Origin: Mobula hypostoma
Lineage: Eukaryota
NCBI RefSeq assembly: GCF_963921235.1
Contig: NC_086097.1
Coordinates: 60,266,001-60,330,000 of the forward strand
Direction: 5' to 3'
Length of the DNA stretch: 64,000 nucleotides
In this document: positions 19,851 to 54,629 of the stretch, piece after piece
Numbering within the stretch: the stretch's first letter is position 1
Layout of the letters: each line of letters starts with the position of its first letter
Program-made: the position numbers and the translations under genes
Notes under the pieces: model-generated
Told to the model about the DNA's origin: nothing
The model's database searches: none
What the model saw: only the letters and a program-made list of their open reading frames with translations

Positions 19851-20668
19851 AGAATCACAAACACAATATAATCTACAGATGCTGGAAATCTAAGCAACAC
19901 ACACAAAATGCTGGAGGAGCTCAGCAGGTCAGGCAGCATCTACGGAAAAGAGTAAACAGTTGATATTTCAGGCCAAGATCCTCATCAGGACTTGAAAAAA
20001 AGATGGCAAATAAGAGTAAGAAGATGGCAGAAAGGAGTAAGTAGTACAAGGTGGTAGATGATAGGTGAAACTGGGTGAAGGGTAGGGATAAAGTAAATAG
20101 CTGGGAAGTTGATAGGTGAAAGAGATAAAGGGCTGGAGTTGGGGGGAATTTGAGGAGTGTATAGAAGGCCAAGGCCTCCTGTTACTGCCACGATGAGGCC
20201 ACACCCAGGTTAGAGAAGCAATGCCTTATATTCAGTCTCAGTAGCTTCCAACCTGATGGCATGAACATCAATTTCTCTAACTTCTGGTAATTGCCCTTCT
20301 CTTTCACCATTCCCTATTTCTGTTTCTCTCTCTCACATTATCTCCTTATCTGCCCATCAACTCCCTCTGTTGCTTCTCCTCCATCGCTTTCTTCCATGGT
20401 CTTCTATCCTCTCATTTCATATGACCCTCCTCCAATCCCTTACCTCTTTCACCAATCAACTTCCCAGCTCTTTACTTCATCATTCCCCTTGTCCTGGTTT
20501 CATCTATCACTTGCCACTTCTTCCTCCTTTCCCCCACCTCCTTACTCTGACTTTTCATCTTTTTTTCCAGTCCTGATGAAAGGTCCTGGCATGAAACATC
20601 GACAGTTTACACTTTTCCATAGATGCTGCCTGGCCTGCTGTGCTCCTCCAGCATTTTGTGTGTTTTGT
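19851..20668. mobile_element. Inverted-repeat Penelope-like element, older subfamily
   Basis: Minus arm ~19855-20170 and plus arm ~20170-20665. Flanked by aataggaatgaggt (19837-19850) and aacaggaatgaggt (20669-20682). Confidence 0.85.
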
Positions 20669-23639
20669 AACAGGAATGAGGTGAGGGCGGTGGAAGAAGC
20701 CCTAAAACAAGTCTTTATTCTTGCCATTTAGCAGCAGGAATGGAGGTGACCATTTTGTGAGACTGTCCTTGCAGCTGCCATTTTGTGAACTTTTTGGGGA
20801 ACTGGTTCTTTCTCTGAGATAACTTAATCAAAGCAATTGCACTCAGCTACAAGGAGTTTCCACTAATAATCTGCTAAACCTGAAACCATACTCAGATAAG
20901 AAGCAGTTTATTCTGTGAAATGGCAGAAGGAACAGCTGTGCCCAGTGTTTGGCTTATCTGGTTAGACAGGTTTGAAGCAGTCTGAATGGACACAAGAAAA
21001 TAAGTCACTTAAGGCACGAGGCTAAAAGAAAGAGCCATAAAGCTATACTGTTTGTAGCCTTGGGCTGCTTTAATGAGAAGCTAACACAAGTCAGTTAGAT
21101 AACCTTGAGCCAACAAAACTGAAAAAGCATACATTGATCTGATAAGGAAAAGATTAAAAATGGAGGATTTGGGAGCACAGGAAGTGACAACTCTCTAGAG
21201 ATTACATCAGGATCAAGAAGATTGCTTGGCCAGTGTGGACTCTTTTTACTGAGTATTAGCTTTTTCCTTCTTTACTGCTCACAGAAGATCAGGAAACCTA
21301 GTGGTGTATACACAGGTATTCAGTTGTGTAAATTCATGTGCTTGTGAACTGAGCTAATAAAGGTGCTTTTGACTAAATAGAGATTCTCTCTGTGCCTAAC
21401 TGATCATTATTATTAAGTTAATCCTTGTAACAAAATACTTTCTATTTTACTACATAGTAGCAATATAGTTCCATCAAACATTAATCAGCAATTTTGTTGC
21501 ATTTTATATTCATCATAATTATGATGACTTATGAATTACTAATTATTACTCAAGATGTTTTATTTCTTCACACAAAGATAAAGGCTAAACATTTTATTAG
21601 TTTGAATACTTAAGTAAAATAGCAAAGCGGAGGAAGTAAAGAGTAAGTAATTTTTATAAAATCTGGATATCGTTCAGGGGTATCAAAGAAGTGTTTAATG
21701 TCTCTACCAGAAATAGAAACCATTAAAATGGAGGCCTGCAATACATGCATTCTCTGTGAAACATTGTGAGCAAGGGATTGAACATACTCACAAACACAAG
21801 CTCTCAGCACAGTATCACTGTTTATTCCAAGAACCTCTTCAGGATAATCCTGCAAGCCTCTCTAGACAATTGCTGCAACCAAGGGAACAGTCAATCACAT
21901 GTCCCATATTTAACGAGATAATAGCCTTAAAGCCACAGTTAGCCTTTTAACAGGCCAAATATATTGCACTACTCTCCACTTAGAAGAAATAAACAGGACA
22001 CTCTTTACATTAATGCAAAACATTTAACTACATCATGGACATTCAGATTGTTGGATGTGATGGTATTGGGTCTATTGACCGTGCAGTTCTGAACTCAAAC
22101 CTTAAGCCCTAACCAAAATAGATAGCTATGGGTGCCCTTACAGATGGGAGACTATATAGAAACTACCTAATCTTCAAAAGCTGGTTCACTCCCCTGTTTA
22201 TCCTCCATAGCAAGTTTAGAATTCAATACCCACTATTTGAGCAGTGGGTCTCCCATCCCCTACAAAGGAGCAGGTACTTCCAGCTAACAACATAGTTTAA
22301 ACACAGTTCATTTATTTTCAGTGATACATATTTAAATTGAAACAGTCTTAAAACACATTTAAAAATCAGAAGATTTCTACCCTATGAAAATAACTTCCAA
22401 ATTACAAATCATTTCAAAAACAAAGGATTTCCAAAACACAGATGCAATTCCTATAAACGGAAAAGACGTACCATTGAGTCTCAGATGAATGCATCATCCA
22501 TTGCAGTAATCGAAGGCAGAGGAATAGGTTTTATTTCATGAGTATTTCTGTCATTTTTCTTGATGTTCCTGGCCAATCCTAAAGAACCTGAACTGCTCTC
22601 TAAATTGATATCATCTTTTTGCCACATGGGTGACTTCACAAACATGTGATATTCTTTCAGATACCTTTTAAGATAAACTGTCTTCTGGAGACAGAGTTCT
22701 CAGGTACCCACAATTAATGCTGTGAAGTTGACTCCATGAGTAAATCTTTTAAATATTAACAGGTCAGCTTTTGATATGCTAAACAATAACATCAATCTGA
22801 TCTGCAAGATTCCTTCCACTAAATAATTAAGCCAGTGTTGTCTATTTTAAAAACAAGCCAAATTAGATAGCCCATTGCCTTACACTGCATTTTTGGGCAC
22901 TTGGGACATGAGCTGCTGGGCCAGCAAGTCTCTGGCTCTGTAGACAATGTTTGTTTACAAAGTTGTCTCTTTTAACTCCAAGTGCTTGTCATTTACCTTA
23001 AGAACTGAAGACTGGCTTTTTGTTAACAAGGAATATTAGTTGTAAATTTAACTTGCTCAAAAAAACAACACTTTGACCTTTACAAACTCACAGCTGCTGT
23101 GTTTAGAAACCCGAGCTTGGCAAAAAAAAACAAGGCACCCTGGCCCAGGACAGTGAATATGTATCTCACAGATATCTCTGTGATGATGCTGATCTGTCTT
23201 TGATCTGCCCTGGATGTCAGATGGTTATTTTTGCGGGTATTAGCCCACAACAATAATAATCAGTTTGGTACAGAGAAATCTGATTTACTGACAAAAACCT
23301 TTATTGAATCAATTAACATGCATGTCAATTATACAGAATTAAATACCTATGTGCAGACCCAATAGGTTTTCATGACAATCCCTGAACATATAAAGAATAT
23401 AAAAGGTAAAACCTGGGAAAAGAAGTTTATACTTGATCTCAGTGTACTTTCCATGTTTTTGATATGGGGTCACCCACATCTGCATTGTTTGCTCTCTAGG
23501 TTTGTCACAGCCTGTGTGAAATCCCCAGTTCTTACCCTTTTCCATAATAGATCAATCTATTATGTTTTAATTTGGTTGGCTCAACCTCATCTGATTGAAC
23601 TGTGTCAGCTTATTGGATCTGGCCCAAGGCTACCAGAAA

Positions 23640-24975
23640 AGATTCAAGATTCAACGATTCAAAGATTCAAATTACATTTATTATCAAAGTACTGTATGTA
23701 TAAATTGTACAGCTTTGAGATTTGTCTGCTTACAGGCAGCCACAAAGCAAGAAATTCGAAAGAAGCCAACTAAAAAAAAATGAAGACCAACACCCAATGC
23801 ACAGCAAAAGAGGGAAAAACACAAATCATGCGAACAATAGAAATAGGCGATAGCACTCCGAACCAAGTTAAGTCCATAGACCTAAATTCCCAGAGCAACC
23901 GCAGTAGGCCGAAAGCCTCGAGCTTAAGTTCATCATATAGTGGGGCAAGCTGCCGTGAAGCTTGCAGACATGAAGCCTGTAGCAGTGGAAGCAGACTCAC
24001 GGCCTCAGTGCCATGGAGAGAGGAGTGTACTTTGCTGGAGAATGAGCAACAGCAGCCCGACCGTCACTTCCGGTCCTGGCACCCTGCCTTTCCAGCCTAC
24101 CTGGGCCAGCATTTAAATTATTCAAACACCAGGTTGTGCCCTTCCAGGCCCCAGTGCAGGGCCTAGACTTCATTGCCCAGCCCAAAGCCATTCTCAACCT
24201 CTCCAACAGGGCTCGGCACTCAGAGTAATCCAACTTCGCACCCAGTTTAGGCGGACGGGAATCAAAACTTCTCTGCCTCAACTCCTTTTTGAATCATTCA
24301 CTTCAACTCCATCTCCTTCTCTGAAACTGTATTGGACACATTGTGCCCTGACTTTGCAATGCATTAGGACAACTTATACCTCGAGTAACCTCCACCTCCA
24401 CTCACCTCTTCATTGTTTGCAGTGACAGTATACCACAATTTACCTCATAAGAAGTGTTATTTTGGAATTTAGAAGATTGAAGGGGGATCTAATTGAAACC
24501 TATAAAATTCTAAAGGGATTGGACAGACTAGATGCAGGGAGATTGTTCCCGATGTTGGGGAAGTACAGAATGAGGGGTCACAGTTTGAGGATAAAGGGGA
24601 AGCCTTTTAGGACCGAAATGAGGAAAAACTTCTTCACACAGAGAGTGGTGAATCTGTGGAATTCTCTGCCACAGGAAACAGTTGAGGCCAGTTCATTGGC
24701 TATATTTAAGAGCGAGTTAGATAAGGCCCTTGTGGCTAAAGGGATCAGGGGGTATGAAGAAAAGGTAGGTATAGGGTTCTGAGTTGGATGATCACCCATG
24801 ATCATACTGAATGGCGGTGCAGGCTCGAAGGGCCGAATGGCCTACTCCTGCACCTGTTTTCTATGTTTCTATGTTTCTATGTTATTAATTATGTCTTTAG
24901 TTGTATTTTGTATCTTCTGAATAATCAGTAAGCTGTCACACAACTCCTGTAGTATTAGTTTATGACTCTTCCCCC
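23640..24975 (-). mobile_element. Non-autonomous retroposon with LINE-like 3' end, interrupted by CR1
   Basis: (AAGATTC)n tail plus catttattatcaaagta at 23640-23700, shared with 55650-55720 and 46430-46500; GC-richer body. The right boundary is approximate. Confidence 0.5.
24462..24880 (+). mobile_element. CR1 3' fragment with (TTTCTATG)n tail
   Basis: EFRRLKGDLIETYKILKG...FFTQRVVNLWNSLP; possible TSD tgttatt at 24455-24461 and 24880-24886. Confidence 0.92.
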
Positions 24976-26154: not shown

Positions 26155-26364
26155 GGCAACACACATAAAAGTTGCTGGTGAACGCAGCAGGCCAGGCAGC
26201 ATCTCTAGGAAGAGGTACAGTCGACGTTTCAGGCCGAGACCCGTGACGAAGGGTCTCGGCCTGAAACGTCGACTTACCTCTTCCTAGAGATGCTGCCTGG
26301 CCTGCTGCGTTCACCAGCAACTTTTATGTGTGTTGCTTGAATTTCCAGCATCTGCAGAATTCCT
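26155..26364. mobile_element. 210-bp palindromic Penelope-derived mini-element
   Basis: Inverted arms 26156-26242 and 26251-26336 (one 1-nt indel), tail 26337-26364, perfect TSD ataatttgagacca at 26141-26154 and 26365-26378. Confidence 0.95.
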
Positions 26365-27554
26365 ATAATTTGAGACCATCTTTTTAAAAGGGATAAGTTG
26401 TTTTATCAACCCACAAAAATACTTAGGTTATTGCATTTACACAAATACAGGCTTTGATTAAAATATTGACTAAAATGAGAAAACAAGAAATAGGAGATTA
26501 AAAGCATGTTTCACAATTTTTACCTCAGTTTCACATTCAGAGCCTTCATCCAGTGATCAGAGATTTATTAGTCTCAGTCTCCAAGATGTTCAACATTTAC
26601 AAGTCCTCAAACAAGGAGTAGAAAATTCAAACTAGCCAGTATCGTCTTAGTAGAAAATTTTCACCTCACTTTCAATACAAAATGGTCAGCCCCCTCCATG
26701 TCCACCCACCCTTCGATGAAACTATGTCCCCATAGATCTGTCAGAATGGGCATAGAAGCCATTTATCCTGTTAAACAGGATTCAGATCCAGTTTAGTTTA
26801 TTCTAATTTTCACCAGGGTGCAATGAAATTCCATGATCTCATGAAACTCACAGAATAAATAGTCTACATGTTAATAACAAATACAATAAACAGAGTGATG
26901 TGCGAAACATCCAAATGATGCAAGGACAGTAGTACAATGTGAAGAAGAGAAAAAAAGAAATACAAAAATGACAATAAATTATAACAGAAAAATAGAATGA
27001 AGAGTGTCAGCACCCACCAGGAAAGGGGATGTGAAACAGATTAGTTCAGAATTTTGACACATTGGGAAAGAAACTGTTCTTGCGTCTGACCGTCTGGGCT
27101 TCCAACTATCTGCATCTTCTCCTAAAGTTAGAATGGAGAGAAGGGAATGTCCATCGTGGCAGACACTCTTGACAATACTGTTACCTTTATGATAAATGCA
27201 CTGTGTATGCTTTCAAGGGATGTGTGTTTCGGGGAAATTACCGCAAGTTCTTCCAAATTCCAGAAAATGTAGTTTTATCTACCTCGATAAATTAAGCGTT
27301 TCATCCCAGGAATCAAATTTGTGAACCACTGTTACATCTTCTTTCAGGATAATTTATTTTTTTTCAGGTAAGGCGACCATTTATTCGTATTGAAGAATAC
27401 TATCAACATTCTTAAAATATGAAAACTTATAGAAGGTGAATCAACTCTTCTCGGGCTTCCAGTCGAGTACAGATATCAATTTTAACTACTATTGATTCCT
27501 CTGGGTAACCCAAACGGATACACCTCCTGTACGCCCTGATGCAGGTTTGCACTG

Positions 27555-28135: not shown

Positions 28136-28256
28136 CACTGTGTCTTGTCTGGCTGATATAGTATACGCAGCTCACCATTCACAGGACTAACCAATCAGGA
28201 GGGGCGGATGGCAGGGATATAAATACCACCAGACCAGACATGCCCAGGCATCATCC

Positions 28257-28292: not shown

Positions 28293-29046
28293 GTTAAGAT
28301 CAATACCTGTACCCAGATGGAAACCTGAGAAGAGTTTATTCGTCATATACATCAGGAAAGAACTAGATCCTTTTGTTATAAACATATATTTTTACAAAAA
28401 AAGCAGGAAAATGTCATTCTGCGACTCAATCCTATTCTAAGATTCATTAAGATTGTGGCTGATTTGATCTTGGTCTCAAATCCACTAGAATGTCTGTACT
28501 CCAAACTCCTCAACTATATTTTGTCTTGTACTTGAACAAATTCATTGGCTCTATCTACACCAACACGGAATAGAGAATTTCAAAGATACACAATCCTTTG
28601 AGAGAAAAAAAATCCTCCAAATCTCCATTTTAAATGAGCAAAACTAATTTTGAAACTGTCTCCTAAGGAGAAACATCTAGTCATAATCTACCTGCCAAAG
28701 CACTTAGAATTACCACTTATTCCTCTAAGCTCCACTGAGAATAGATCCAACCCACTCAAGATAATTTTTTTTTCATTCCAGCAATCAACTCAGTGAACAT
28801 TGCCTGAATTTTCCCCATTATTTTCCTGCCCTTTATGGGTGTGGAATGGCATTTATTGTTCATACTCCTTCCAATGGAAGCCAGTTGATTAACCTTCCTG
28901 ATTGCTTGCTTATCTGTACGCCAACTTTCTGGTTTTCACATATGAGGAAACCCACACTGCTGTATGCTGCAGGATTCTGTAATCTGTCTCCCCACACCCC
29001 CCCCCCACCTTAATATGTAAATGTTTTTTGTGACTCTTTTTATTAT

Positions 29047-31371
29047 AGAGACATAGAAACATAGAAAATAGATGCAGGAGTAGGCCATTTGGCCCTTCGA
29101 GCCGGCACCGCCATTTATTATGATCATGGCTGATCATCCAACTCAGAACCCCACCCCAGCCTTCCCTCCATACCCCCTGACCCCCGTAGCCACAAGGGCC
29201 ATATCTAACTCCCTCTTAAATATAGCCAATGAACTGGCCTCAACTGTTTGCTGTGGCAGAGAATTCCACAGATTCACCACTCTCTGTGTGAAGAAGTTTT
29301 TCCTAATCTCGGTCCTAAATGGCTTCCCCTCTATCCTCAAACTGTGGCCCCTCGTTCTGGACTTCCCCAACATCAGGAACAATCTTCCTGCATCTAGCCT
29401 GTCCAATCCCTTTAGGATTTTATACGTTTCAATCAGATCCCCCTCAATCTTCTAAATTCCAACGAGTACAAGCCCAGTTCATCCAGTCTTTCTTCATATG
29501 AAAGTCCTGCCATCCCAGGAATCAATCTGGTGAACCTTCTTTGTACTCCCTCTATGGCAAAGATGTCTTTCCTCAGATTAGGGGACCAAAACTGCACACA
29601 ATACTCCAGGTGTGGTCTCACCAAGGCCTTGTACAACTGCAGTAGTAGCTCCCTGCTCCTGTACTCGAATCCTCTCGCTATAAATGCCAGCATACCATTC
29701 GCCTTTTTCACCGCCTGCTGTACCTGCACGTCCACTTTCAATGACTGGTGTATAATGACACCCAGGTCTCGTTGCACCTCCCCTTTTCCTAATCGGCCAC
29801 CATTCAGATAATAATTTGTTTTCCTATTTTTGCCACCAAAGTGGATAACTTCACATTTATCCACATTAAATTGCATCTGCCATGAATTTGCCCACTCACC
29901 CAACCTATCCAAGTCACCCTGCATCTCTTAGCATCCTCCTCACAGCTAACACTGCCACCCAGCTTCGTGTCATCCGCAAACTTGGAGATGCTGCATTCAA
30001 TTCCCTCATCCAAGTCATTAATATATATTGTAAACAACTGGGGTCGCACTACTGAGCCTTGCAGTATCCCACTAATCACCGCCTGCCATTCTGAAAAGGT
30101 CCTGTTTATTCCCACTCTTTGCTTCCTGTCTGCTAACCAATTCTCCACCCACACCAATACCTTACCCCCAATACCGTGTGCTTTAAGTTTGCACACTAAT
30201 CTCCTGTGTGGGACCTTGTCAAAAGCCTTTTGAAAATCCAAATATACCACATCCACTGGTTCTCCCCTATCCACTCTACTAGTTACATCCTCAAAAAATT
30301 CTATGAGATTCGTCAGACATGATTTTCCTTTCACAAATCCATGCTGACTTTGTCCGATCATTTCACCGCTTTCCAAATGTGCTGTTATCACATCCTTGAT
30401 AACTGACTCCAGCAGTTTCCCCACCACCGACGTTAGGCTAACCGGTCTATAATTCCCCGGTTTCTCTGTCCCTCCTTTTTTAAAAAGTGGGGTTACATTA
30501 GCCACCCTCCAATCCTCAGGAACTAGTCCAGAATCTAACGAGTTTTGAAAAATTATCACTAATGCATCCACTATTTCTTCGGCTACTTCCTTAAGCACTC
30601 TAGGATGCAGACCATCTGGCCCTGGGGATTTATCTGCCTTCAATCCCTTCAATTTACCTAACACCACTTCCCTACTAACATGTATTTTGCTCAGTTCCTC
30701 CATCTCACTGGACCCTCTGTCCCCTACTATTTCTGGAAGATTATTTATGTCCTCCTTAGTGAAGACAGAACCAAAGTAATTATTCAATTGGTCTGCCATG
30801 TCCTTGCTCCCCATAATCAATTCACCTGTTTCTGTCTGCAGGGGACCTACATTTGTCTTTACCAGTCTTTTCCTTTCTACATATCTATAAAAGCTTTTAC
30901 AGTCTGTTTTTATGTTCCCTGCCAGTTTTCTCTCATAATCTTTTTTCCCCTTCCTAATTAAGCCCTTTGTCCTCCTCTGCTGAACTCTGAATTTCTCCCA
31001 GTCCTCAGGTGAGCCACTTTCTCTGGCTAATTTGTATGCTTCTTCTTTGGAATTGATACTATCCCTAATTTCTCTTGTCAGCCACGGGTGCACTACCTTC
31101 CTTGATTTATTCTTTTGCCAAACTGGGATGAACAATTGTTGTAGTTCATCCATGCAACCTTTAAATGCTTACCATTGCATACCCACCGTCAATCCTTTAA
31201 GTGTCATTTGCCAGTCTATCTTAGCTAATTCACGTCTCATACCTTCAAAGCTACCCCTCTTTAAGTTCAGAACCTTTGTTTCTGAATTAACTATGTCACT
31301 CTCCATCTTAATGAAGAATTCCACCATATTATGGTCACTCTTACCCAAGGGGCCTCTCACGACAAGATCGC
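29047..31371 (-). mobile_element. Young 5'-truncated CR1 LINE (APE end, RT, 3' UTR)
   Basis: ORFs 31169-31360 (GKSDHN), 29804-31153 (KSPGPDG, DFQKAFDKVPH, FADD), 29433-29924 and 29143-29406. (ATAGAAAC)n tail; possible TSD tattat at 29041-29046 and 31372-31377. Confidence 0.96.
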
Positions 31372-32024
31372 TATTATGTATGAGTGCTTACTCTGATTAT
31401 ACTGCTATACTTCCAAGGATTTTCTAATATAGTTCCTCATATTGCATGGATCCTGCTTATAATATTAATGAATGACATGGAACAGAAGGTTTGCACTGCC
31501 AAATAATTGAATTTGCTGCAGGCAGGAGCAAGCAAAATGTCAGTTGATGAGGGAAACTTGGACCAATTATATTGATAAACTGAGATAAAGCAGTTGAATT
31601 TTAATACAAATATTATCACAGAGTAGCTGATTTACAACTAGATAACAGTTAGAAAGTAAGTGTTTTACTTAAACAGGCAAGACTTCCTCACTGCCATTCT
31701 GAAAATGACAGAAAATCTGATTAAAGTTAATAATTTAGCTGATTAACATAAAAAGCTAGCAGTAAACTTCCAAGTCTGGAACGTGATCAAATATCTGAAA
31801 GATAAAATAAAATCTAGCAGGACATGAATTGTGTGGGATTGATTTCAAGTGCTGGTTATGAAGTGAAACATATTTAGTTCAAGGCCTATTGACACCTTTA
31901 GAAGGAATGTGAATCCATACCTGTGATTATGGTGCTAATTATAAAGTGTCTCTGGGGTTCTGGAAATAGGTGTTTTGAAAAGAGAACCAGAAAGGATGAA
32001 GTTAGATACTGAGGATCCATTCAT

Positions 32025-33140
32025 AAACAAGAGATAATCTGCAGATGCTGGAGATCCAAGCAACGCACACAAAATGCTGGAGGGACTCAGCAGACTGAGC
32101 AGTATCTATGGAAAACAGAACAGTCACCATTTCAGGGCTTCATCAGTACTGGAAAAAATATGAGGAGTCAGAGGAAGAAGGGTAATAGATGAAACCGGGA
32201 GGGGTGAAGTAAAGAGCTGGGAAGTTGATTGGTGAAAGAGAGCCAGGACTGGAGAAGGGGGAGTCTGATAAGAGAGGACAGAAGGCCATGGAAGAAAGAA
32301 AAGGGGGAAGAGCATTTGAGGGAGGTGATACGCAGGTAAGGAGATAGGTGAGAAAGGGAAATGGGAATGTTGAAGTGGTGGGGGGCATTACCAGAAGTTT
32401 AAGAAATCACTGTTCATGTTAACAGGTTGGAGGCTACCCAGGCGGAATATAAGGTTTTGCTCCTCCAACCAGAGTGGAGCCTCATCATGACAGCAGAGGA
32501 GGCCATGGACTGACATGTAGGGATGGGAATGTTAAGTGGAATTAAACTGGGTGGCTACTGGGAGATCCCACTTTTTCTGGCAAATGGGATGTAGGTGCTT
32601 GGATTGGAAGCGGTCTCCCAATCTGCTTTGGGTCTCACCGATATATAGGAGTCCACACCGAGAGCACTAGATACAGTAGGTGACCCCAACAGACTCACAG
32701 GTGAAATGTTGCCTCTCCTGGAAAGACTGTTTGGGGACCAGAATGGTAGTGAGGGAGGATGTAGGTTCAGGAGTAGCACTTGTTCTGTTTGCAAGGATAT
32801 GTGCCAGGAGGGAGATCGGTGGGGAGGGATGAATGGACCAGAGCGTTGCATATGGAGCAATCCCTGTGGAAAGCAGAAATTGGTGGGGGGAGGGTGAAGG
32901 GAAAGATGAGCTTAATGGCGTGATCCCATTGGAGATGGTGGAAGTTATGGAGAATTATGTGCTGGATGCAGAGGCTTTTGAGGTGGTAGGTGATGACAAT
33001 GGGAACCCTATCCCCAGGGTGGAGTGGCAGGATGGTGTGAGGACAGACAAGCAGGAAATTGAAGTGATGTGGTTGAGGTCAGCGTTAATGGTGGAGGAAG
33101 GGAAGCCCGTTTCATTGAAGAAGGAGGTTCCTCTTGTTGA
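32025..33140 (-). mobile_element. Penelope-like element 3' part (RT thumb, GIY-YIG, terminal repeat), diverged
   Basis: SFFNETGFPSSTIN in ORF 32955-33143; colinear with the minus arm at 50044-51230; degenerate hammerhead at 32121-32151. Confidence 0.88.
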
Positions 33141-41924: not shown

Positions 41925-42192
41925 TCCTGGTCAGGCAGCATCTTTGGAAAAGAATAAACAGTCGATGTTTTGGGCTGAGACCCTTAGTCAGGACCAGAAA
42001 GCAAGGGGCCTAAAACCAGAATAAGAAGATGAACAGAGGGGAAAGTGTAAAGCCAGCAAGTGATAGGTGAAAACAGGTAAGAGGGAAAGTGGGTACTGGA
42101 TGGCAAATGGGGGATTAAGTTGTTGCTTGACCTGCTGAGTTCCTCCAGCATTTTGCTCTGGATTTCCAGCATCTGCAGAATCTCCTGTGTTT
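41925..42192. mobile_element. Short inverted Penelope-like terminal-repeat remnant
   Basis: Minus arm with degenerate hammerhead (41959-41995) joined to the plus-strand terminus ...ccagcatctgcagaatctcctgtgtt. Confidence 0.75.
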
Positions 42193-43554
42193 ATGTTAAT
42201 TTTGTTTCAGGATATCTGACCTTCTCAAAACAATGTTTACTGTCTTGTTTCAGATTTTCAAGATTATCAATATTTTGGCCTTTAACAAGTGTACGATGTT
42301 CACAACCATTATCGTTGTGTTTGATTGAGCTATCCATAAGAGTAATTTTAATCAATAAACATTGATCAAATAAATTTAAGCAAATTAGTTTATAAATACC
42401 AAAAAGAATTAAATCCCATCAGTGTTCTGATGTTTCACAGCTTTGCCAAGCCAGTAAAAGAAAGGAATAATTGTAAATTATTTAATTGGTAATTAGATTC
42501 AAATAGTCAACTGAATAATAACAAAAATAGCATTATGAAGACAAAGAATGGCTAGATCATATAGGACACAGTGAATCTATGATATATTTTACCCATACCT
42601 CACCATAGAGAAGGAAAGACATTCAACATAGTTAAAAGTATAACAGGATATATGCCTGCTGTGAAATACGAAAACGTGCAGTCAAAAGTGATTATAATGC
42701 ACAGCAGGGGAAAAGGAAAAGTGTTAAGCAGAGAGACACTCTGAATGGGGAGCTGATGGGACAAAATTAGGGTGGTCAAGAAGAAGCAAGAAGGAGAAAA
42801 CACAGATGATGCATAGATACAGAGCTGCTTGCCATTTGGCCCAAGCTGGTATCTTAATGTACTTGCCTCGATGATGCATCGGCTTTGTTTGAGGAATTTT
42901 TCATTTACTTGTTAATGTCTAAAACATTTTGACTAAGTTTACACAACAAATTATTTTAGACTTTAACAAGATGTACATATATATTTACCATGAAAAATTG
43001 TCTCATGTTTATTAACTCTGACAGATGGTAGCCATTAAACTTGTCAACAAATATTTCAGCTTCCTGTGGATCTTATTTTTGTTTTGATATCCAGCACATT
43101 TGTGATAGGACAAGGTACATGTTTCAGTGACATATGACCCCTCCTCAGAATGAAGGAAATAAAGAAATATGACAACCGCATCAATTGTGCATTTTGTTAA
43201 GTTTGTCTTACAAAAAAGCAAGTCCTGTTGGGTCATAAAGCAGGCTTTGGGAAAAATATATCATTAAAAGAAATACATATACCAGACTCCATTGATGAAA
43301 CTTTCAACTGATGTGCCTCTGAGATGTGCTCCATCTTCCTGAAGCATAGCTTCCCTTTACCGTAGTCTTCATAGCCCTTGACCGTCTTATCCCTATTCCA
43401 TTTCTTTGCTCTCACCCCTTCTTGTGAAAGGAGCATGGACAGAGTTCCCCAGGTGTTCAACTACCACACCATTAGTCAACACATTTAATGCACCACTCCC
43501 ACCTAATCCAATATGATGCCATCACCAGTTGCAAAGAAATATAATCACATCAAC

Positions 43555-44132: not shown

Positions 44133-44209
44133 AAAAAGTTTCAGTCGCTTGGCTTTCAAGATGAGGCAGCAAATTGTAATCCACATCAGCTCCGTGGAGG
44201 AAGCCAGAC

Positions 44210-44940: not shown

Positions 44941-45575
44941 GTTGATCTTGTCTAAAACTGGTACAAACTCAATGGGCCAAATAGCCTCATACTATGCTGT
45001 TATCTTTTCTGTGATTCTGTATTTCTGGTTCAAAAAATCAACATGAGATACATTAACCTAATATTATACCAAACCTTCAACTATAGATTTCTTTTTGTGA
45101 TTGTCTGAGTTGGAAGTCTATTTTAACGACAAATTTAGAGTAATCACCATTATGAAACCTGAATTAAAAATTATACATTCAATGAAAGTTGTCATCTATA
45201 AAATTCTGAATTGGATTTTTATTGTTGTCCCATTATATTTACATTACCATTTCATTATTTTCACAGCTCATTGACTAGCTTAGCATTTAATTAGTTTTAT
45301 TCAGCAGTACTGCAGAGTGGTCAATGATGCATCCATTTACTCTTATATTCAAACCTTACCATTCTAAATCATAAATGGAGATAAATTCACAACTGTTTCA
45401 AGTGTGGGACAGATTCTTTATCTATACTTTGATATCTTTACCCTTTCAGTGTTCAATGGATTAAGTAATTTTCATACGCAAACACGAGGAAATCTACAGA
45501 TGCTGGAATTTCAAGCAACACATAAAAATTGCTGGTGAACGCAGCAGGCCAGGCAGCATCTATAGGAAGAGGTAC

Positions 45576-45611
45576 AGTCGACGTTTCGGGCCGAGACCCT
45601 TCGTCGGGACT
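45576..45611 (-). ncRNA. Minimal type-I hammerhead ribozyme motif (core variant CCGACGA)
   Basis: Reverse complement reads agtc-CCGACGA-a-ggg-tctcgg-ccc-GAAAC-GTC-gact. Confidence 0.75.
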
Positions 45612-46165
45612 AACTGAAAGAAGAGATAGCAAAAGATTTGAAAGGGGGTGGGAGAGGGGTAGATCTGAAATGATAGGAGAAGGCAGGAGGGGGAGGGATG
45701 GAACTAAGAGCTGGAAAGTTGATTAGCAAAAGGGATACGAGAGGATCATGGGACGGGAGGCCTAGGGAGAAAGAAAGAGGGAGGGGGAAGCCCAGAGGAT
45801 AGGCAAGGAGTATAGTGAGAGGGACAGAGGGAGAGAAAGGTAAGAGAAAAAAAAAGCAATAATAAATAAATAATAATAATTATTATTATTTGTATTATTT
45901 TATTTATTATTATTATTTTTTCTCTCTCCTTTTTCTCCCTCTGTCCCTCTCACTATATTCCTTGCCCATCCTCTGGGCATCCCCACTCCCCCTTTCTTTC
46001 TCCCTAGGCCTCCCGTCCCATGATCCTCTCATATCCCTTTTGCCAATCAACTTTCCAGCCCTTAGCTCCCTCCCCCTCCTGTCTTCTCCTATCATTTCGG
46101 ATCTCCCCCTCTCCCTCCCACTCCCACTCCCACTTTCAAATCTCTTACTATCTCTTCTTTCAGTT

Positions 46166-46201
46166 AGTCCTGACGAAGGGTCTCGGCCCGAAAGGTCGAC
46201 T
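46166..46201 (+). ncRNA. Minimal type-I hammerhead ribozyme motif (GAAAG variant)
   Basis: agtc-CTGACGA-a-ggg-tctcgg-ccc-GAAAG-GTC-gact. Confidence 0.78.
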
Positions 46202-46419
46202 GTACCTCTTCCTATAGATGCTGCCTGGCCTGCTGCGTTCACCAGCAATTTTTATGTGTGTTGCAAACAATTTTCATCTGGGCTTTTTTTGTGAGATCAA
46301 CAATCAACACTAACCCCCACCCAGAGGATGAGAATTCCATTGGGAAAGGAAATCATTCAAATTAATGAAAATGTCTCAACAATTTCACCAGTCAACTCTT
46401 AAGACAGTAGATGTTCTCT

Positions 46420-46870: not shown

Positions 46871-47055
46871 CTTGGAAGTCTCTGAATTCTTTCGTTGTAC
46901 TCTTGAGCAAGAAATAAGCACATTGTTTTCAATAACTTAATAGTGTAATATTGAGGCAAACAGCAGGAATTCTATAGATGCTGGAAATTCAAGCAACACA
47001 CATTAAAGTTGTTGGTGAACGCAGCAGGCCAGGCTGCATCTCTAGGAAGAGGTAC

Positions 47056-47091
47056 AGTCGACGTTTCAGGCCGGGATTCTTCGTCAGGACT
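47056..47091 (-). ncRNA. Minimal type-I hammerhead ribozyme motif (stem II mutated)
   Basis: Reverse complement reads agtc-CTGACGA-a-gaa-tcccgg-cct-GAAAC-GTC-gact. Confidence 0.72.
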
Positions 47092-48558
47092 AACTGAAGG
47101 AAGAGTTAGTAAGAGGTTTGAAAGTGGGAGGGGGAGGGGGAGATCCGAAATGATAGGAGAAGAGGAGGGGGAGATCCAAAATGATAGGAGAAGACAGGAG
47201 GGGGAGGGATGGAGCCAAGAGCTGGACAGGTGATTGGCAAAGGGGATATGAGAGGATCATGGGACAGGAGGTCTGGGGAGAAAGACAAGGGGGGGGGAAC
47301 CCAGAGGATGGGCAAGGGGTATAGTGAGAGGGACATAGGGAGAAAAAGGAGAGAGAGAGAGAGAGAAGGAATGTGTGTATAAAAATAAATAATGGATGGG
47401 TATGAGGGGGAGGTGGGGCATTAGCGGAAGTTAGAGAAGTTGATGTTCATGCCACCAGGTTGGAGGCCCGGAGAATAATATGTTGGACCCGGAGGCTGGT
47501 GGGGTGGTAGGTGAGGACCAGGGGAACCCTATTCCTAGTGGGATGGCGGGAGGATGGAGTGAGAGCAGATGTACATGAAATGGGGGATGCGTTTCAGAGC
47601 AGAGTTGATAGTTGAGGAAGGGAAGCCCCTTTCTTTAAAGAAGGAAGACATCTCCCTCGTCGTGGAATGAAAAGCCTCATCCTGAGAGCAGATGTGGCAG
47701 AGACAGTCCTGGAACTTCTGCCACCTCCAACGGGATCTCACCACTAAACACATCTTTCCCTCCCCCCCACCCGCTTTCCGCAGGGATCGCGCCCTACGCA
47801 ACTCCCTTGTCCATTCGTCCCCCCTATCCCTCCCCACTGATCTCCCTCCTGGCACTTATCCTTGTAAGCGGAACAAGTGCTACACATGCCCTTACACTTC
47901 CTCCCTTACCACCATTCAGGGCCCCAGACAGTCCTTCCAGGTGAGGCGACACTTCACCTGTGAGTCGGCTGGGGTGATATACTGCATACGGTGCTCCCGA
48001 TGTGGCCTTCTATATATTAGCGAGATCCAACGCAGACTGGGAGACCGCTTTGCTGAACACCTACGCTCTGTCCGCCAGAGAAAGCAGGATCTCCCAGTGG
48101 CCACATATTTTAATTCCACATCCCATTCCCATTCTGACATGTCTATCCACGGCCTCCTCTACTGTAAAGATGAAGCCACACCCAGGTTGGAGGAACAACA
48201 CCTTATATTTCGTCTGGGTAGCCTCCAACCTGATGGCATGAACATCGACTTCTCTAACTTCCGCTAATGCCCCACCTCCCCCTTGTACCCCATCCGTTAT
48301 TTATATGCACACATTCTTTCTCTCACTCTCCTTTTTCTCCCTCTGTCCCTCTGAATATACCCCTTGCCCATCCTCTGGGTTCCCCCGCCACCTTGTCTTT
48401 CTTTCTGGACCTCCTGTCCCATGATCCTCTTATATCCTGTTTGCCAATCACCTGTCCAGCTCTTGGCTCTATCCCTCCGCCTCCTGTCTTCTCCTATCAT
48501 TTTGGATCTCCCCCTCCCCCTCCCACTTTCAAATCCCTTACTCACTCTTCCTTCAGTT

Positions 48559-48594
48559 AGTCCTGATGAAGGGTCTCGGCACGAAACGTCGACT
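48559..48594 (+). ncRNA. Minimal type-I hammerhead ribozyme motif (intact core)
   Basis: agtc-CTGATGA-a-ggg-tctcgg-cac-GAAAC-GTC-gact; one stem II mismatch. Confidence 0.82.
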
Positions 48595-49229
48595 GTACCT
48601 CTTCCTAGAGATGCTGCCTGGCCTGCTGTGTTCACCAGCAACTTTGATGTGTGTTGAGTGTAATATTGAGACTGATCATTTTTCAAGCCAAAATATTGGA
48701 GTGGCCATAATCCCTACAATTTTTGCACCCCAAATCCATCTGCACAAACTCACTGCATACCAAAATAAAGCATCACACTTTAATTTGTTCCTGTCCTTGG
48801 CCAGAAAAGTTGATTGGCATTGCATTAACAATTATCATATCATTAAATGGATCCTTAGGCAGTTAAATTCTAGCCCTAACATTCTATGCCAAGTTTAATG
48901 GACAATTAATATGCAAATCTAACCACTTCTTTAAAATAATGGGACAGATAAATGTGAAGGAAATGGTGAGCAGTTTAAATAGATCAGAATGATCTCAAGG
49001 CTCATGACTCATGGTGGATTCTTTAGTCACTAAAGCTTACTAACTAATTTGTGCATTGGCAACAACTGCATTATGATTATCCAGCAAGATCTCAACCTGG
49101 ATTTGTATTTCTTTTGAGATCTAGGATTAGTTGCATTAAAATTTAGTAACAGTGCTTTGAAAGTTTTCTGACATAACAGAAGTTGGCACTCTGGAAGCTT
49201 CACTTATGTTGGGGTTTTTACTTTCACAG

Positions 49230-49366: not shown

Positions 49367-50144
49367 GTATATTTTGCTGAATGAAACTGAAAATAAATAT
49401 AGCCAAGTGTGAAGATAGCAGACAGTCTTTCATTTTGCCACATTCTTCAGAGGCCTTTCAGAAATGTGGTTTTAAAAAGCTGAAGCCTCAGGAAGCATAA
49501 CAATGGAGTATATATCTCTGTACACTCCCAAAGTCTATAAGCCTCAGAAATATCCCAGCTTCAATGATTCTGGTTTCCTGAGTAACCGTGATATTAATTG
49601 CTTTACCATCGACAGATGTGACTTCACCTTCTAAACGTCTAATCTCTTGAACTTGCTCCCAAATCCTCTCAAACTTTTTTCTTCTCCTATCAAGATGTTC
49701 TTCAAAAACTAATTATTTTACTAAGCATTCAATCAGCTATCCTACCATTTCAAAATTTGACAAATAAACTATTGTTTTATCAATATAGCATTTATTTAAC
49801 TTATTTTCCTTCTGTAATTGATAAAACATATGAACAAAAGCAAGTAGCAGGAGAATGTTTCTAAGTCTCTTAAGCTTGATCTACCATTCAAAAAGATCAA
49901 ATAATTATTTCAACACTACATTCATGCTCTATTCTCTTTCTCCTGGAATCCCTTCCAAATCAGATCCGAGTGCCATAAATTATCTGAGTCTGAAGAACCT
50001 TCTGAGATTGAGAATTCTAAAAACTCATCACTCTCTTAAGGAACGCAAACACGAGGAATTCTGCAGATGCTGGAATTTCAAGCAACACACATCAACGTTG
50101 CTGGTGAACGCAGCAGGCCAGGCAGCATCTCTAGCAAGAGGTAC

Positions 50145-50180
50145 AGTCGAAGTTTCGGGCCGAAACCCTTCGTCAGGACT
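50145..50180 (-). ncRNA. Minimal type-I hammerhead ribozyme motif (UUC variant)
   Basis: Reverse complement reads agtc-CTGACGA-a-ggg-tttcgg-ccc-GAAAC-TTC-gact. Confidence 0.75.
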
Positions 50181-51299
50181 AACTGAAGGAAGAGCTAGTA
50201 AGAAATTTGAAAGTGGGAGGGGGAGGGGGAGATCGAAAATGATAGGAGAAGACAGGAGGCGGAGGGATAGAGCCAAGAGCTGGACAGGCGATTGGCAAAA
50301 GGGATATGAGAGGATCATGGGACAGGAGGCCCAGGGAGAAGGAAAAGGGGGAGGGGGGGGAAACCCAGAGGATGGGCAAGGGGTATAGTCAGAGGGATAG
50401 AGGGAGAAAAAGGAGAGAGAGAGAAAGAATGTGTGTATATAAATAAATAACGAATGTGGTACGAGGGGGAGGTGGGACATTAGCGGAAGTTAGAGAAGTC
50501 AATATTCATGCCATCAGGTTGGAGGCTACCCAAACGGAATATTAGGTGTTGTTCCACCAACCTGAGTGTGGCTTCATCTTTACAGTAGAGGAGGCCGTGG
50601 ATAGACATGTCAGAATGGGAATGGGATGTGGAATTAAAATGTGTGGCCACTGGGAGATCCTTTTTTCTCTGGCGGACAGAGGGTAGGTGTTCAGCAAAAT
50701 GATCTTCTAGTCTGCGTCAGGTCTCGCCAATATATAGAAGGCCACATCGGGAGCACCGGACGCAGTATATCACCCCAGCCGACTCACAGGTGAAATGTCG
50801 CCTCACCTGGAAGGACTGTCTGGGGACCTGAATGGTGGTAAGGGAGGAAATGTAAAGGCATGTGTAGCACTTGTTCCGCTTACAAGGATAAGTGCCAGGA
50901 GGGAGATCAGTGGGGAGGGATGGGGGGGACGAATGGACAAGGGAGTCGCGTAGGGAGCAATCCCTGCAGAAAGCGGGGTGGCGGGAAGGAAAGATGTGCT
51001 TAGAGGTGGGATCCCGTTGGAGGTGGCGGAAATTACGGAGAATAATATGTTGGACCTGGAGGCTAGTGGGGTGGTAGGTGAGGTCCAGGGGAACCCTATT
51101 CCTAGTGGGGTGGCGGGAGGATGGAGTGAGAGCAGATGTGCGTGAAATGGGGGAGATGCGTTTGAGAGCAGAGTTGATGGTGGAGGAAGGGAAGCCCCTT
51201 TCTTTAAAAAAGGAGGACATCTCCCTGGTCCTGGAATGAAAAGCCTCATCCTGAGAGCAGATGCAGCAGAGTTCCTGGAATGAAACGCCTCATCCTGAG

Positions 51300-54200
51300 T
51301 TCAGTGAAAGAATCTCTCACTGCTCCCCCATCTGTAATTTCTTCGGCTCTTCAACCTTTCGACCACATTTTGACTCAGACTCGCTATCACAGCCATATAT
51401 CCTTTCTTGGAACGTGCCTCCATCGCCAAGTTACTCCAGTTGGCTTTAGGATTCGTTTTCAAGCCTCTCAATCTGGACCTTCTGAGGATCCCAGGTACTC
51501 ATATTTTATTGACTTTGCCTCTCGTCGCTTCTCCCGTCAAGCTCTGAAGGCGACCCTGTCCGCCATGAGGAGATATTTGGTGTCCTTATAGCAGACTCTT
51601 CCACACCTTTGGGACACTTTCTTCGCCGTCTGTAATGGTCCTACCCGTTATTTCATCCTCCGTCGGATTCACGCCTGCAATCGCCGTTTTTTTGACTTTG
51701 TCATGTTAGGCAAAGATCCCAAGATCTTACATCTGCAGACCTCAGAGCCTGCTGGCCCTGACGCTAGCAGGCATGAACTTCAGATTGCGGCCCCTGCCAT
51801 TGATCTCGCCGGCTCCAACACTTCAGGACATGTTCAAAACCCGGACTCCAGCAACGACCATGGACACCTTCAAAGCGATTGCGCAACCACCAACTGAGAC
51901 TCCAGCCTTGAACTCCAGGCCGGGTCTTTATGTGTTGCTATTGTGACTCCCGTCTTCCCTTCCCCAATTACCACTCTGCAACCCTGTCTCCTTCAGATCC
52001 CACCATCAGCTTCTGGGCCCTCAGAGGCTCCACCTTCCTCTCACCCCAACCCTCCCCTCTCCACTGATGCACTCAGCCTCCCCCCTCTCGCCTCTGAACC
52101 CAGCTGTCATCCGTGCCGGGTCTTTACCATCCCCTCCGACCTTCAACTCTCTGAGGCAGAGCGCTCTATCCTCAGTAAGGGCCTCACCTTTGTCCCCCTT
52201 CGCCCACACCTCAGCGAGTTCTGCGTTCGCCAGGATGCGGAACTCTTCTTCCGCCGTCTTCGTCTCCGAGCCTACTTCTTCAGCAAGGACTCTTCCACCC
52301 CCACCGATGATCCCTTCTCCCGTCTTCAACCCTCCTCCTCTTCATGGATACCCCGCTCTGGTCTTCTGCCTGTCTGGATCTCTTTATTGCTAATTGCCGA
52401 CGGGACATCAACCGTCTCGACTTCACCGCACCTTGTTCCCATTCCAACCTTACTCCTTCCGAACGCTCTGCTCTCCACTCCCTCCGCACTAATCCTAACC
52501 TTACTATTAAACCCGCCGATAAGGGGGGTGCTGTTGTAGTCTGGCGTACTGACCTCTACCTTGCCGAGGCACGGTGACAACTCGCGGATACCTCCTCTTA
52601 TTTACCCCTCGATCGTGACCCCACTAAGGAGCGCCAGACCATTGTCTCCCACACCATCACCGACTTTATCCACTCAGGGGATCTCCCATCCACTGCTACC
52701 AACCTTATAGTTCCCACACCTCGCAACTCCCGTTTCTACCTCCTACCCAAGATCTACAAACCTGCCTGTCCTGGCAGACCTATTGTCTCAGCTTGCTCCT
52801 GCCCCACCGAACTCGTTTCTGCATACCTCGACACGGTTTTATCCCCCCTTGTTCAATCCCTTCCTACCTATGTTCGGGACACTTCTCACGTTCTTAAACT
52901 TTTCGATGATTTTAAGTTCCCTGGACCCACTGCTTTATTTTCACCATGGATGTCCAGTCCCTATATATTTCCATCCCCCATCAGGAAGGTCTCAAAGCTC
53001 TTCGCTTCTTTTTGGATTCCAGACCTAATCAGTTCCCCTCTACCACCACTCTGCTCTGTCTAGCGGAATTAGTCCTTACTCTTAATATTCTCATTTGGCT
53101 CCTCCCACTTCCTCCAAACTAAAGGTGTAGCTATGGGCACCCATATGGGTCCTAGCTATGCCTGCCTTTTTGTTGGCTTTGTGGAACGATCTATATTCCA
53201 AACCTATTCTGGTATCTGTCCCCCACTTTTCCTTCGCTACATCGATGACTGCATTGGCGCTGCTTCCTGCACATATGCTGAGCTCGTTGACTTCATTAAC
53301 TTTGGCTCCAACTTTCACCCTGCCCTCAAGTTTACCTGGTCCATTTCTGACACCTCCCTCCCCTTTCTAGATCTTTCTGTCTCTATCTCTGGAGACAGCT
53401 TATCTACTGATGTCTACTATAAGCCTACTGACTGTCACAGCTATCTGGACTATTCCTCTTCTCACCCTGTCTCTTGCAAAAATGCCACCCCCTTCTCGCA
53501 ATTCCTCCATCTCCGCCGCATCTGCTCTCAGGATGAGGCTTTTCATTCCAGGACCAGGGAGATGTCTTCCTTTTTTAAAGAAAGGGGCTTCCCTTCCTCC
53601 ACTATCAACTCTGCTGTTAAACGCATCTCTCCCATTTCACGTACATCTGCTCTCACTTCATCCTCCCGCCGCCCCACTAGGAATAGGGTTCCCCTGGTCC
53701 TCACCTACCACCCCACTAGCCTCCGGCTCCAACATATTATTCTCCGTAACTTCCGCCACCTCCAACAGGATCCACCACTAAGCACATCTTTCCCTCCCCC
53801 CACCCTGCTTTCCACAGGGATTGCTCCCTATGGGACTCCCTTGTCCATTCGTCCCCCCCCATCCCTCCCACTGATCTCCCTCCTGGCACTTATCCTTGTA
53901 AGCGGAACAAGTGCTACACATGCCCTTACACTTCCTCCCTTACCACCATTCAGGGCCCCAGACAGTCCTTCCAGGTGAGGCGACACTTCACCTGTGAGTT
54001 GGCTAGGGTGATATACTGTGTCCGGTGCTCCCAATGTGACCTTCTATATATTGGCGAAACCCGATGCAGACTGGGAGATCGTTTTGCTGAACATCTACGC
54101 TCTGTCAGCCAGAGAAAGCAGGATCTCCCAGTGGCAACACATTTTAATTCCACATCCCATTCCCATTCTGATATGTCTGTCCACAGCCTCCTCTACTGTA

Positions 54201-54301
54201 AAGACGAAGCCACACTCAGGTTGGAGGAACAACACCTAATATTCCGTTTGGGTAGCCTCCAACCTGATGGCATGAATATTGACTTCTCTAACTTCTGCTA
54301 A
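51300..54301 (+). pseudogene. Penelope-like polyprotein (N-terminal domain, RT, Cys linker, GIY-YIG endonuclease), disrupted
   Basis: Motifs in order: HISFLGTC...PVG, LSEAERSILSKGLTFVP, IKPADKGGAVVVW, MGTHMGPSYA, RYIDD, LPFLD, YYKPT, CKRNKCYTC, VIYCVRCSQCDLLYIGET...RFAEH. Several stops and frameshifts. Confidence 0.95.
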
Positions 54302-54593
54302 TGCCCCACCTCCCCCTCGTACCCCATCCGTTATTTATTTATATACACACATTCTTTCTCTCTCTCTCCTTTTTCTCCACCTGTCCCTCTGACTATACCC
54401 CTTGCCCATCCCTTTCCCCCCTCCCCCTTTTCCTTCTCCCTGGGCCTCCTATCCCATGATCCTCTCATATCCCTTTTGCCAATCACCTGTCCAGCTCTTG
54501 GCTCCATCCCGCCTCCTCCTGTCTTCTCCTATCATTTTGGATCTCCCCCTCCCCCTCCCACTTCCAAATCTCTTACTAGCTCTTCCTTCAGTT

Positions 54594-54629
54594 AGTCCTG
54601 TCAAAGGGTCTCGGCCCGAAATGTCGACT
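54594..54629 (+). ncRNA. Degenerate hammerhead ribozyme motif
   Basis: agtc-CTGTCAA-a-ggg-tctcgg-ccc-GAAAT-GTC-gact; core mutated. Confidence 0.6.

What the first reader, a model, noticed from the sequence alone, without database searches (positions are those of the whole stretch)
19958..54629. About a dozen minimal hammerhead-ribozyme motifs carried on both strands by Penelope-like repeats
Seen: the motif agtc-CTGA(C/T)GA-a-ggg-N6-ccc-GAAAC-GTC-gact recurs at ~19958(-), 20569(+), 26243(+), 32121(-), 41959(-), 45576(-), 46166(+), 47056(-), 48559(+), 50145(-) and 54594(+). It has the hammerhead core boxes, stem I and stem II, while stem III is reduced to the loopless palindrome ACGT. Established: Penelope-like elements carry such minimal type-I hammerheads, thought to cleave as dimers. 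Inference: because these elements are inverted repeats, each one places a ribozyme on each strand, and neighbouring copies could supply same-sense dimer partners within one long transcript. Ordinary annotation would miss this layer.
Basis: partly seen in the sequence, partly recalled or inferred. Interest (0 to 1): 0.75.

Follow-up and report, generated by a model that had tools for sequence, protein, structure and literature searches.

The report
Decayed Penelope hammerheads in mirror-image insertions

Summary
All 11 listed sites are real, plus a twelfth half-motif. They are minimal type-I hammerheads in the end repeat (pLTR) of a Neptune-type Penelope-like retrotransposon in a likely cartilaginous fish. 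They belong to seven insertions, five of them with 10-15 bp target duplications. Hammerheads in this position, opposite-strand pairs and the one-sided tail are all published.

None of 12 motifs passes a strict descriptor (one with U4C allowed). On either strand the antisense arm is transcribed first, and predicted stem pairing falls to 0.00 in 6 of 6 read-through folds. Across the family, CpG decay hits essential bases as hard as the loop, so inserted copies show no sign of selection; no covariation was found.

Residual interest lies in the insertion record: both arms share private variants (15 of 15 columns), the tail is one-sided (6 of 6), and junctions appear to gather at the first base of stem I, inside an initiator-like heptamer. 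This suggests uncut RNA starting at the ribozyme as one template. The scan noted this family and these features before, in this genome and others. Cleavage was not tested.

The parts
19543..19634 (.). Insertion A: tail-only arm (-) joined to a 54-bp endonuclease-region scrap (+); no hammerhead, no target duplication found
19856..20667 (.). Insertion B (older subfamily): head-to-head, tailed arm on -, short-ended arm on +; 14-bp target duplication with 1 mismatch
19958..19992 (-). Hammerhead motif, damaged (G1.1>A breaks stem I, stem II mismatched, 1 nt missing)
20569..20604 (+). Hammerhead motif, damaged (G16.2>A, stem II broken)
26156..26366 (.). Insertion C: near-perfect ~210-bp palindrome whose turn lies inside the hammerhead; 15-bp target duplication with 1 mismatch; tail on the + arm only, about 10 nt short
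26219..26242 (-).
26244..26274 (+). Half motif starting at U4, preceded by a single G at 26243; no stem I 5' strand
32021..33127 (-). Insertion D (older subfamily): single tailed arm with 3' part of the ORF; no second arm or target duplication found
32123..32150 (-). Hammerhead motif, damaged (7 nt of stem II deleted)
41929..42195 (.). Insertion E (older subfamily): motif-bearing arm on -, 78-bp tailed arm on + that does not reach the motif; no target duplication found
41960..41995 (-). Hammerhead motif, damaged (G8>T, G12>A, G16.2>A)
45478..46264 (.). Insertion F: head-to-head pLTR pair, arms 88% alike over 761 bp; tailed arm on -; 10-bp target duplication with 1 mismatch
45576..45611 (-). 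Best-preserved motif: only change is U4>C
46166..46201 (+). Motif with C15.2>G (stem III no longer self-complementary); 46166 is the first base of stem I and the +1 of the initiator-like heptamer; predicted cut between 46197 and 46198
46956..48657 (.). Insertion G: tailed arm on - (46956-47467), internal inverted ORF scrap (47469-47714), main arm on + (47713-48656); 14-bp exact target duplication
47056..47091 (-). Motif with stem II broken (4 changes)
48559..48594 (+).
50045..54685 (.). Insertion H: tailed inverted arm on - (50045-51280) and near-full-length element on + (51290-54685), 5'-truncated and without an upstream pLTR; 14-bp target duplication with 1 mismatch
50045..50081 (-). 37-nt tail between the short end (67 nt after the predicted cut) and the long end (104 nt after it)
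50145..50180 (-). Motif with G16.2>T (stem III no longer self-complementary)
51292..54301 (+). Broken PLE ORF: DKG motif (52515), RT core (53124, 53238), CX4CxxC linker (53897), GIY-YIG endonuclease with CCHH (54017-54140); frameshifts and stops
54594..54629 (+). Motif with core destroyed (A6>T, G8>A, C15.2>T)

Best explanation
The motifs are passively decaying copies of the minimal hammerhead in the end repeat of a Neptune-type Penelope-like retrotransposon, found on both strands because single insertions are built head to head, and they are predicted to be inactive where they now lie. Shown: position in the pLTR behind an RT plus GIY-YIG ORF, target duplications round whole palindromes, shared private variants between arms, a one-sided tail, damage to every copy, CpG decay blind to function. 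Inferred: both cut ends of the target prime reverse transcription on RNA from one source element, one at each of two start sites 37 nt apart, and the two cDNAs join at their truncated ends. The ribozyme likely works, if at all, only in the source element's own pLTR-ORF-pLTR RNA, as a slow protein-assisted dimer of its two same-sense copies; the inserted copies were made from uncut RNA.
For: PLE identity: the RT fragment has 129 relatives at E<=0.001, best named hits Chiloscyllium punctatum at 65%; a natural RT plus GIY-YIG protein aligns over residues 35-929 to 51292-54280. One event per palindrome: target duplications of 10-15 bp in 5 of 8 insertions. One source for both arms: 15 of 15 two-against-four columns among six long arms group arms of the same insertion, where 3 of 15 possible pairs are same-insertion. 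Tail on exactly one arm in 6 of 6 two-armed insertions (A and D left out, having no second pLTR arm). Damage: 0 of 12 strict. Sequestration: stems I and II at probability 0.00 and 82-97% of motif bases paired >60 nt away in 6 of 6 folds of B, F, G; H arm duplexes -298 and -320 kcal/mol against -27 to -36 for single arms. Neutral decay: in two DNA runs the loop CpG changes in 7-10% and 9-11% of depth, core and stem CpGs in 8-13% and 12-17%, non-CpG motif positions in 0.5-1.6% and 0.4-3.2%. Literature: low in vitro activity of dimers; protein-assisted cleavage, dispensable for insertion in vitro, no RNA-seq ends at the cut site, two adjacent RT start sites, both strands extended; inverted 5'-truncated copy and one-sided tail.
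Against: Folding results are equilibrium predictions; a transcript starting inside a pLTR would escape its own antisense arm. 45576(-) differs only by U4C, a change reported to lower but not abolish function, and could in principle pair with 47056(-) 1.5 kb away. Genome-wide, roughly 46-58% of young copies escape disabling CpG hits on an independence estimate, so this window's damage does not speak for all copies. Shared variants between arms could also come from gene conversion between arms. Contig-depth shares are rough, and one search listed no rows for 46166-46177, so the CUGA box and stem I 5' strand were not measured. Three of 8 insertions show no target duplication.
Confidence: 0.85

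Rival explanations
1. One reading: clustered copies form an active layer of same-sense hammerhead dimers that cut one long host or read-through transcript.
For: Same-sense motifs lie 1.5-6 kb apart between 45.5 and 54.6 kb. Dimer action of minimal hammerheads is published. One ordered pair (45576- as enzyme half with U4C, 47056- as substrate half) keeps all four stem III pairs.
Against: 0 of 12 strict motifs; 0 of 12 ordered same-strand pairs fully intact; sense motifs buried in dsRNA. For the majority motif, two monomer rods (-13.5 each) and a mispaired dimer (-35.3) are predicted to beat the double hammerhead (-16.3 kcal/mol). No protection of essential CpGs. No host transcript over the window was shown.
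Confidence: 0.05
2. The motif no longer functions as a ribozyme even in source elements and is kept as promoter or protein-binding sequence.
For: No significant covariation among 10 arms (score 0.107 against 0.092 shuffled, 122 of 500 shuffles as high). An initiator-like heptamer overlaps stem I in 7 of 10 arms. A common source variant changes the conserved C11.1 to U (45% and 36% of DNA depth). Naiad PLEs thrive without hammerheads.
Against: Two subfamilies that differ on both sides of the motif keep the same motif. High-frequency source variants lie just outside it (46203, 46204, 46215) while the only one inside the measured part keeps pairing as G-U or shifts to A-U. The motif fits the published consensus at every feature. 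The Anolis counterpart cuts when protein is added.
Confidence: 0.2
3. The mirror arm is made by self-priming or fold-back of one cDNA, or homogenised later by gene conversion, and not by priming from both target ends.
For: Self-priming on an antisense template was proposed for such junctions. Shared variants fit any one-source model.
Against: In H the tail-less arm holds about 2.1 kb absent from the tailed arm, and the tailed arm holds 37 nt absent from the other, so neither arm can be a copy of the other; B and G show the same pattern. Arms are now 7.5-8.1% apart, so conversion is not keeping them alike.
Confidence: 0.15

Closest known systems
Minimal hammerheads (min-HHR) in pLTRs of metazoan PLEs (Cervera and De la Pena 2014, PMC4209133; main text parts 1-2 of 4 and supplement file 2 parts 1-2 of 3 read)
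   Same: Type I, CUGANGA plus one extra base, G10.1-C11.1, short stem I, loopless palindromic stem III, U-rich upstream, mostly single motifs in truncated copies, opposite-strand pairs 100-700 bp apart. The Acropora digitifera Neptune motif in Fig. S3 has the same core and a similar short stem II.
   Different: No cartilaginous fish is in Table S1 or the Fig. S3 rows I read (0 hits for Callorhinchus, shark, Leucoraja in file 2; file 1 not searchable). Here a major source variant has U11.1, and five CpGs in 36 nt account for most of the variability measured.
EN+ PLE insertion architecture, Neptune/Nematis type (Craig et al. 2021, PMC8557442, passages; Arkhipova et al. 2013, PMC3846280, passages)
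   Same: C-terminal GIY-YIG, CX2-5CxxC linker, CCHH, DKG; 5' truncation; adjacent inverted truncated copy; 30-40 bp tail often at one end only; target duplications of 8-10 bp reported in Adineta.
   Different: Target duplications here are 10-15 bp; no upstream direct pLTR in any copy in this window; no microsatellite targeting seen.
Poseidon from Anolis carolinensis, PAc (Frangieh et al. 2024, PMC11167929; parts 1-2 of 4 read)
   Same: Hammerhead followed about 100 nt later by two ends that define the tail.
   Different: Different clade (no linker finger reported for Penelope/Poseidon). In PAc the ORF starts at stem II; the ORF start of this family was not found in the window.
Non-LTR retrozymes (Li et al. 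2026, bioRxiv 10.64898/2026.07.22.740005; part 1 of 5 and passages read)
   Same: pLTR-derived, type-I hammerheads, reported in one chondrichthyan species.
   Different: Retrozymes are head-to-tail tandem arrays with same-sense ribozymes. These are head-to-head, and no such tandem array was found.

Membership tests
PLE minimal hammerhead | Core boxes CUGANGA and GAAA, NUH cut site, extra base after A9 | tested here: met
   Met by the family majority; both boxes kept in 6 of 12 copies
PLE minimal hammerhead | Stems I and II, palindromic 15.2-16.2 without loop III | tested here: met
   86.5% of 96 cells paired against 13-43% when slid; no single copy keeps all features strictly
PLE minimal hammerhead | Lies in the pLTR, sense to the ORF | tested here: met
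   About 290 nt behind the ORF stop in H, same strand
PLE minimal hammerhead | Covariation in stems | tested here: inconclusive
   No excess over shuffles in 10 arms; copies of one source cannot show it; C11.1>U is compatible on one side only
PLE minimal hammerhead | Self-cleavage as a dimer | not testable with these tools
   No raw RNA reads were offered; needs a bench assay
EN+ PLE | RT with DKG motif followed by C-terminal GIY-YIG with CCHH | tested here: met
   (GIY-YIG E=0.0018, below the curated cut-off)
EN+ PLE | Inverted 5'-truncated copy and 30-40 bp tail | tested here: met
   37-nt tail, one-sided in 6 of 6
Neptune clade | CX2-5CxxC linker between RT and EN (shared with Nematis) | tested here: met
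   CX4CxxC at 53897; definition
Neptune clade | RT phylogeny groups with named Neptune and not Nematis elements | not tested
   No named reference sequences were held; one search reports Neptune and Poseidon as the vertebrate clades among 35 species
Non-LTR retrozyme | Head-to-tail tandem units, each with a complete hammerhead | tested here: not met
   No such array among 9 tandem-repeat rows or in the self-comparison

The most novel reading that the evidence does not exclude
The element's RNA starts at the first base of hammerhead stem I, whose 5' strand doubles as the transcription initiator. A double-hammerhead cut would then remove the cap at one end and the reverse-transcription start sites at the other, so the ribozyme would be an off-switch or circle-maker and not a maturation step. 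Genomic copies would record uncut, capped RNA, primed from both target ends with one enzyme at each of the two tail sites, which makes the tail strictly one-sided.
Probability: 0.4. Interest if true: 0.5.

Novelty: new member of a known kind. Interest (0 to 1): 0.2.

Why it matters
As a ribozyme finding it adds a cartilaginous-fish family to a known list and shows why such motifs should not be counted as active: methylation-type decay and the mirror arm are predicted to silence them. The insertions are more useful as a record of how Penelope-like elements integrate, which is still open. One source for both arms, a one-sided tail and junctions at the ribozyme's front edge give testable predictions for the existing in vitro system. 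The long arm-to-arm hairpins would be dsRNA sources if a host transcript crosses them.

Tried and rejected
No genome is held for this window, so nothing was counted on an assembly. A fuzzy-match script timed out and was replaced by an ungapped scan, which misses the two gapped copies; these were read by eye and by alignment. Rfam found no hammerhead. A 20-base pattern found 32 metagenome and 1 viral locus; 0 of 33 extend beyond 32 bp of match, so none is this element. No RNA holder on record was listed. Runs X14 and X15 are only guessed to be RNA and are contigs: they carry the whole motif in one piece and fewer CpG hits (2-9%), but cannot show strand, ends or level, so I draw nothing on cleavage or expression from them. 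Raw-read runs X21 and X22 matched only the AG-rich tract. One search used a structure string off by one column; one search is the valid count. In one search the 32121(-) position was 4 nt off; corrected, it still fails the heptamer. Signs of copies starting at the cut site are thin: one contig deleting exactly stem I to C17 and an opposite-strand joint 46166/46198 in 2 and 3 contigs, which an inversion between the stem I strands also explains. A splice acceptor at the AG of stem I (as in D. virilis) was considered: a pyrimidine tract and a branch-point-like word lie upstream, but no spliced read could be tested. No host exon was sought systematically; earlier notes near the window gave nothing. 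Lunse et al. 2017 is not held; I saw only its title in a reference list, so it may list shark motifs. Searches for a shark PLE hammerhead paper found none beyond those cited. No tRNA genes.
Full report
Observation. A pattern made of the two hammerhead boxes with up to one mismatch matches 7 times against 0.02 expected. Reading out the 11 named sites and aligning them shows a copy at each, on the strand given, and a twelfth half-copy at 26219-26242 on the minus strand. The family majority has stem I of 4 bp, CUGANGA, one extra A, stem II of 4 bp with a 4-nt loop, GAAA, and the loopless ACGU stem III followed by C17. This fits the published consensus for PLE minimal hammerheads. Rfam's hammerhead models do not detect it.

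The carrier. The motifs lie about 290 nt behind the stop of a broken ORF. Its RT fragment has 129 relatives at E<=0.001, the best named ones from Chiloscyllium punctatum at 65% identity, so the host is likely a cartilaginous fish (inference). A natural RT plus GIY-YIG protein aligns over nearly its whole length to 51292-54280 in several frames. DKG, the RT core, a CX4CxxC linker and CCHH are present. The linker marks Neptune or Nematis (PMC8557442, passages); I did not build a tree. The family is very abundant: 62,146 and 115,365 contigs of two DNA runs lie on a 451-bp pLTR stretch.

Anatomy. Self-comparison resolves eight insertions covering 9,619 bp, seven with a motif. Five are flanked by target duplications of 10-15 bp, so each of those palindromes is one event. 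Arms end at one of two places, 67 or 104 nt after the predicted cut, which defines a 37-nt tail. In 6 of 6 two-armed insertions exactly one arm has the tail; chance under independent even choice is 0.016; A and D were left out. Among the six long young arms, 15 of 15 two-against-four columns group arms of one insertion (12 for F, 2 for G, 1 for H), while the arms have since drifted 7.5-8.1% apart. The inverted truncated copy and the one-sided tail are described features of EN+ PLEs, and opposite-strand hammerhead pairs 100-700 bp apart were noted in 2014. In H neither arm can be a copy of the other, so both were likely templated by RNA from one source. This fits the Anolis protein, which nicks and extends both strands and starts at two adjacent sites that define the tail.

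The dimer idea. Same-sense motifs do lie 1.5-6 kb apart in the 45-55 kb cluster. Three results go against their acting as pairs. First, of 12 ordered same-strand pairs among the six full-length young copies, none joins a strict enzyme half to a full stem III; one does with U4C, a change reported to cut activity considerably but not fully (PMC3088659, passage). Second, in a tail-out palindrome the antisense arm is transcribed before the sense arm on either strand. Partition-function folds of B, F and G on both strands give stems I and II probability 0.00 with 82-97% of motif bases paired far away, and H behaves alike. Third, even the majority motif is predicted to prefer a rod in which the CUGA box pairs with the stem III bases; two such monomers (-27 kcal/mol) beat the double hammerhead (-16.3). 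These energies ignore tertiary contacts and protein help. No copy in the window has the native pLTR-ORF-pLTR pair that the published dimer model rests on.

Selection. In two DNA runs the dispensable loop CpG changes in 7-11% of depth and the core and stem CpGs in 8-17%; non-CpG motif positions change in 0.4-3.2%. Essential bases are thus not protected after insertion. One change stands out, C11.1 to U at 45% and 36%, far above CpG decay; it is likely a source variant and keeps pairing. Other frequent source variants sit just outside the motif (46203, 46204, 46215), and the two subfamilies in the window differ on both sides of the motif but not in it. This suggests the motif is conserved in transposing lineages only. 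The shares are depth-weighted contig counts, and positions 46166-46177 were not listed. Covariation among 10 arms does not exceed shuffles; one of the two double changes is a CpG decayed on both strands.

The front edge. Loose ends before 46166-46168 are among the best-supported rows in all 4 runs (339, 151, 143 contigs in X1; 310, 181, 127 in X5; 24 rows shown, 404 not). Five of 12 shown short-junction rows land on 46166 or 46167, three with a single G; two rows at the equivalent base agree, one probably the same locus. The cut site is not among the loose-end rows shown. Palindrome C turns inside the motif with one extra G. The older subfamily diverges at the same base, which explains part of the loose ends but not the short junctions. 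Earlier notes of this scan read this edge as the capped RNA start, and I took that reading from them. My own check: a YYANWYY heptamer (initiator consensus, recalled) has its A on the first base of stem I in 7 of 10 arms, against 1.25% per position in the window; the arms are related, so this is one or two observations, not seven. If right, cutting would remove the cap or the priming sites, which agrees with the report that uncut RNA is the main substrate and that no RNA-seq ends map to the cut. A splice acceptor at the same place, as in D. virilis, is not excluded.

Verdict. A real feature and a new member of a known kind. The scan has recorded this family and its insertion signature many times, in this genome and others; these notes are leads, not support. 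Papers seen: PMC4209133 (main text parts 1-2 of 4, supplement file 2 parts 1-2 of 3; file 1 unreadable), PMC11167929 (parts 1-2 of 4), bioRxiv 2026.07.22.740005 (part 1 of 5 and passages; supplements closed), and passages of PMC8557442, PMC3846280, PMC6765202, PMC6155905, PMC2377424, PMC3088659. Lunse et al. 2017 was not available and may already list shark motifs.

Noticed in passing
window 37853-38398: A 546-bp inverted-repeat element (arms 83% alike) that appears to be flanked by TA and has no ORF of 120 aa; looks like a Tc1/mariner-type MITE (label recalled), unrelated to the PLE.
   Followed up: partly
window 19543-19634 and 20174: Insertion A has an arm that spans only the tail, from the long end to the short end; its other arm starts at almost the same endonuclease-region base as the plus arm of insertion B.
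   Followed up: partly
window 46956-48657: Insertion G has three pieces: an internal ORF scrap (47469-47714, minus) sits between the arms, implying a template jump; the left arm has a 31-bp tandem duplication (47133-47206).
   Followed up: partly
window 47092-47112 (-) and equivalents: A branch-point-like word and pyrimidine tract end in AG within or just before stem I; sense arms could act as cryptic splice acceptors.
   Followed up: no
window 45478-45579 (-) and equivalents: RNA between the cut site and the long end folds into a stem of about 12 bp closing two hairpins in 3 of 4 arms folded; the short end lies in its inner hairpin. A candidate RT-binding structure.
   Followed up: partly
window 46189 equivalent, family-wide: C11.1>U in 36-45% of DNA depth; the extra A after A9 could then pair with U11.1 and give an insertion-free core.
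   Followed up: partly
window 16544-19372(+), 29058-31168(-), 13131-14440(-), 36910-41142: Several decayed LINE copies with AP endonuclease and RT domains (CR1-like by recall); 24462-24880 and 29045-29462 are 91% alike and inverted.
   Followed up: no
window 57265-59013(+): A different LINE RT (456-aa open stretch, RVT_1 plus the ALKBH8_N-like tail domain).
   Followed up: no
window 11999-15090(+): Broken LTR-retroelement relic with a weak integrase-core hit, interrupted by a LINE fragment.
   Followed up: no
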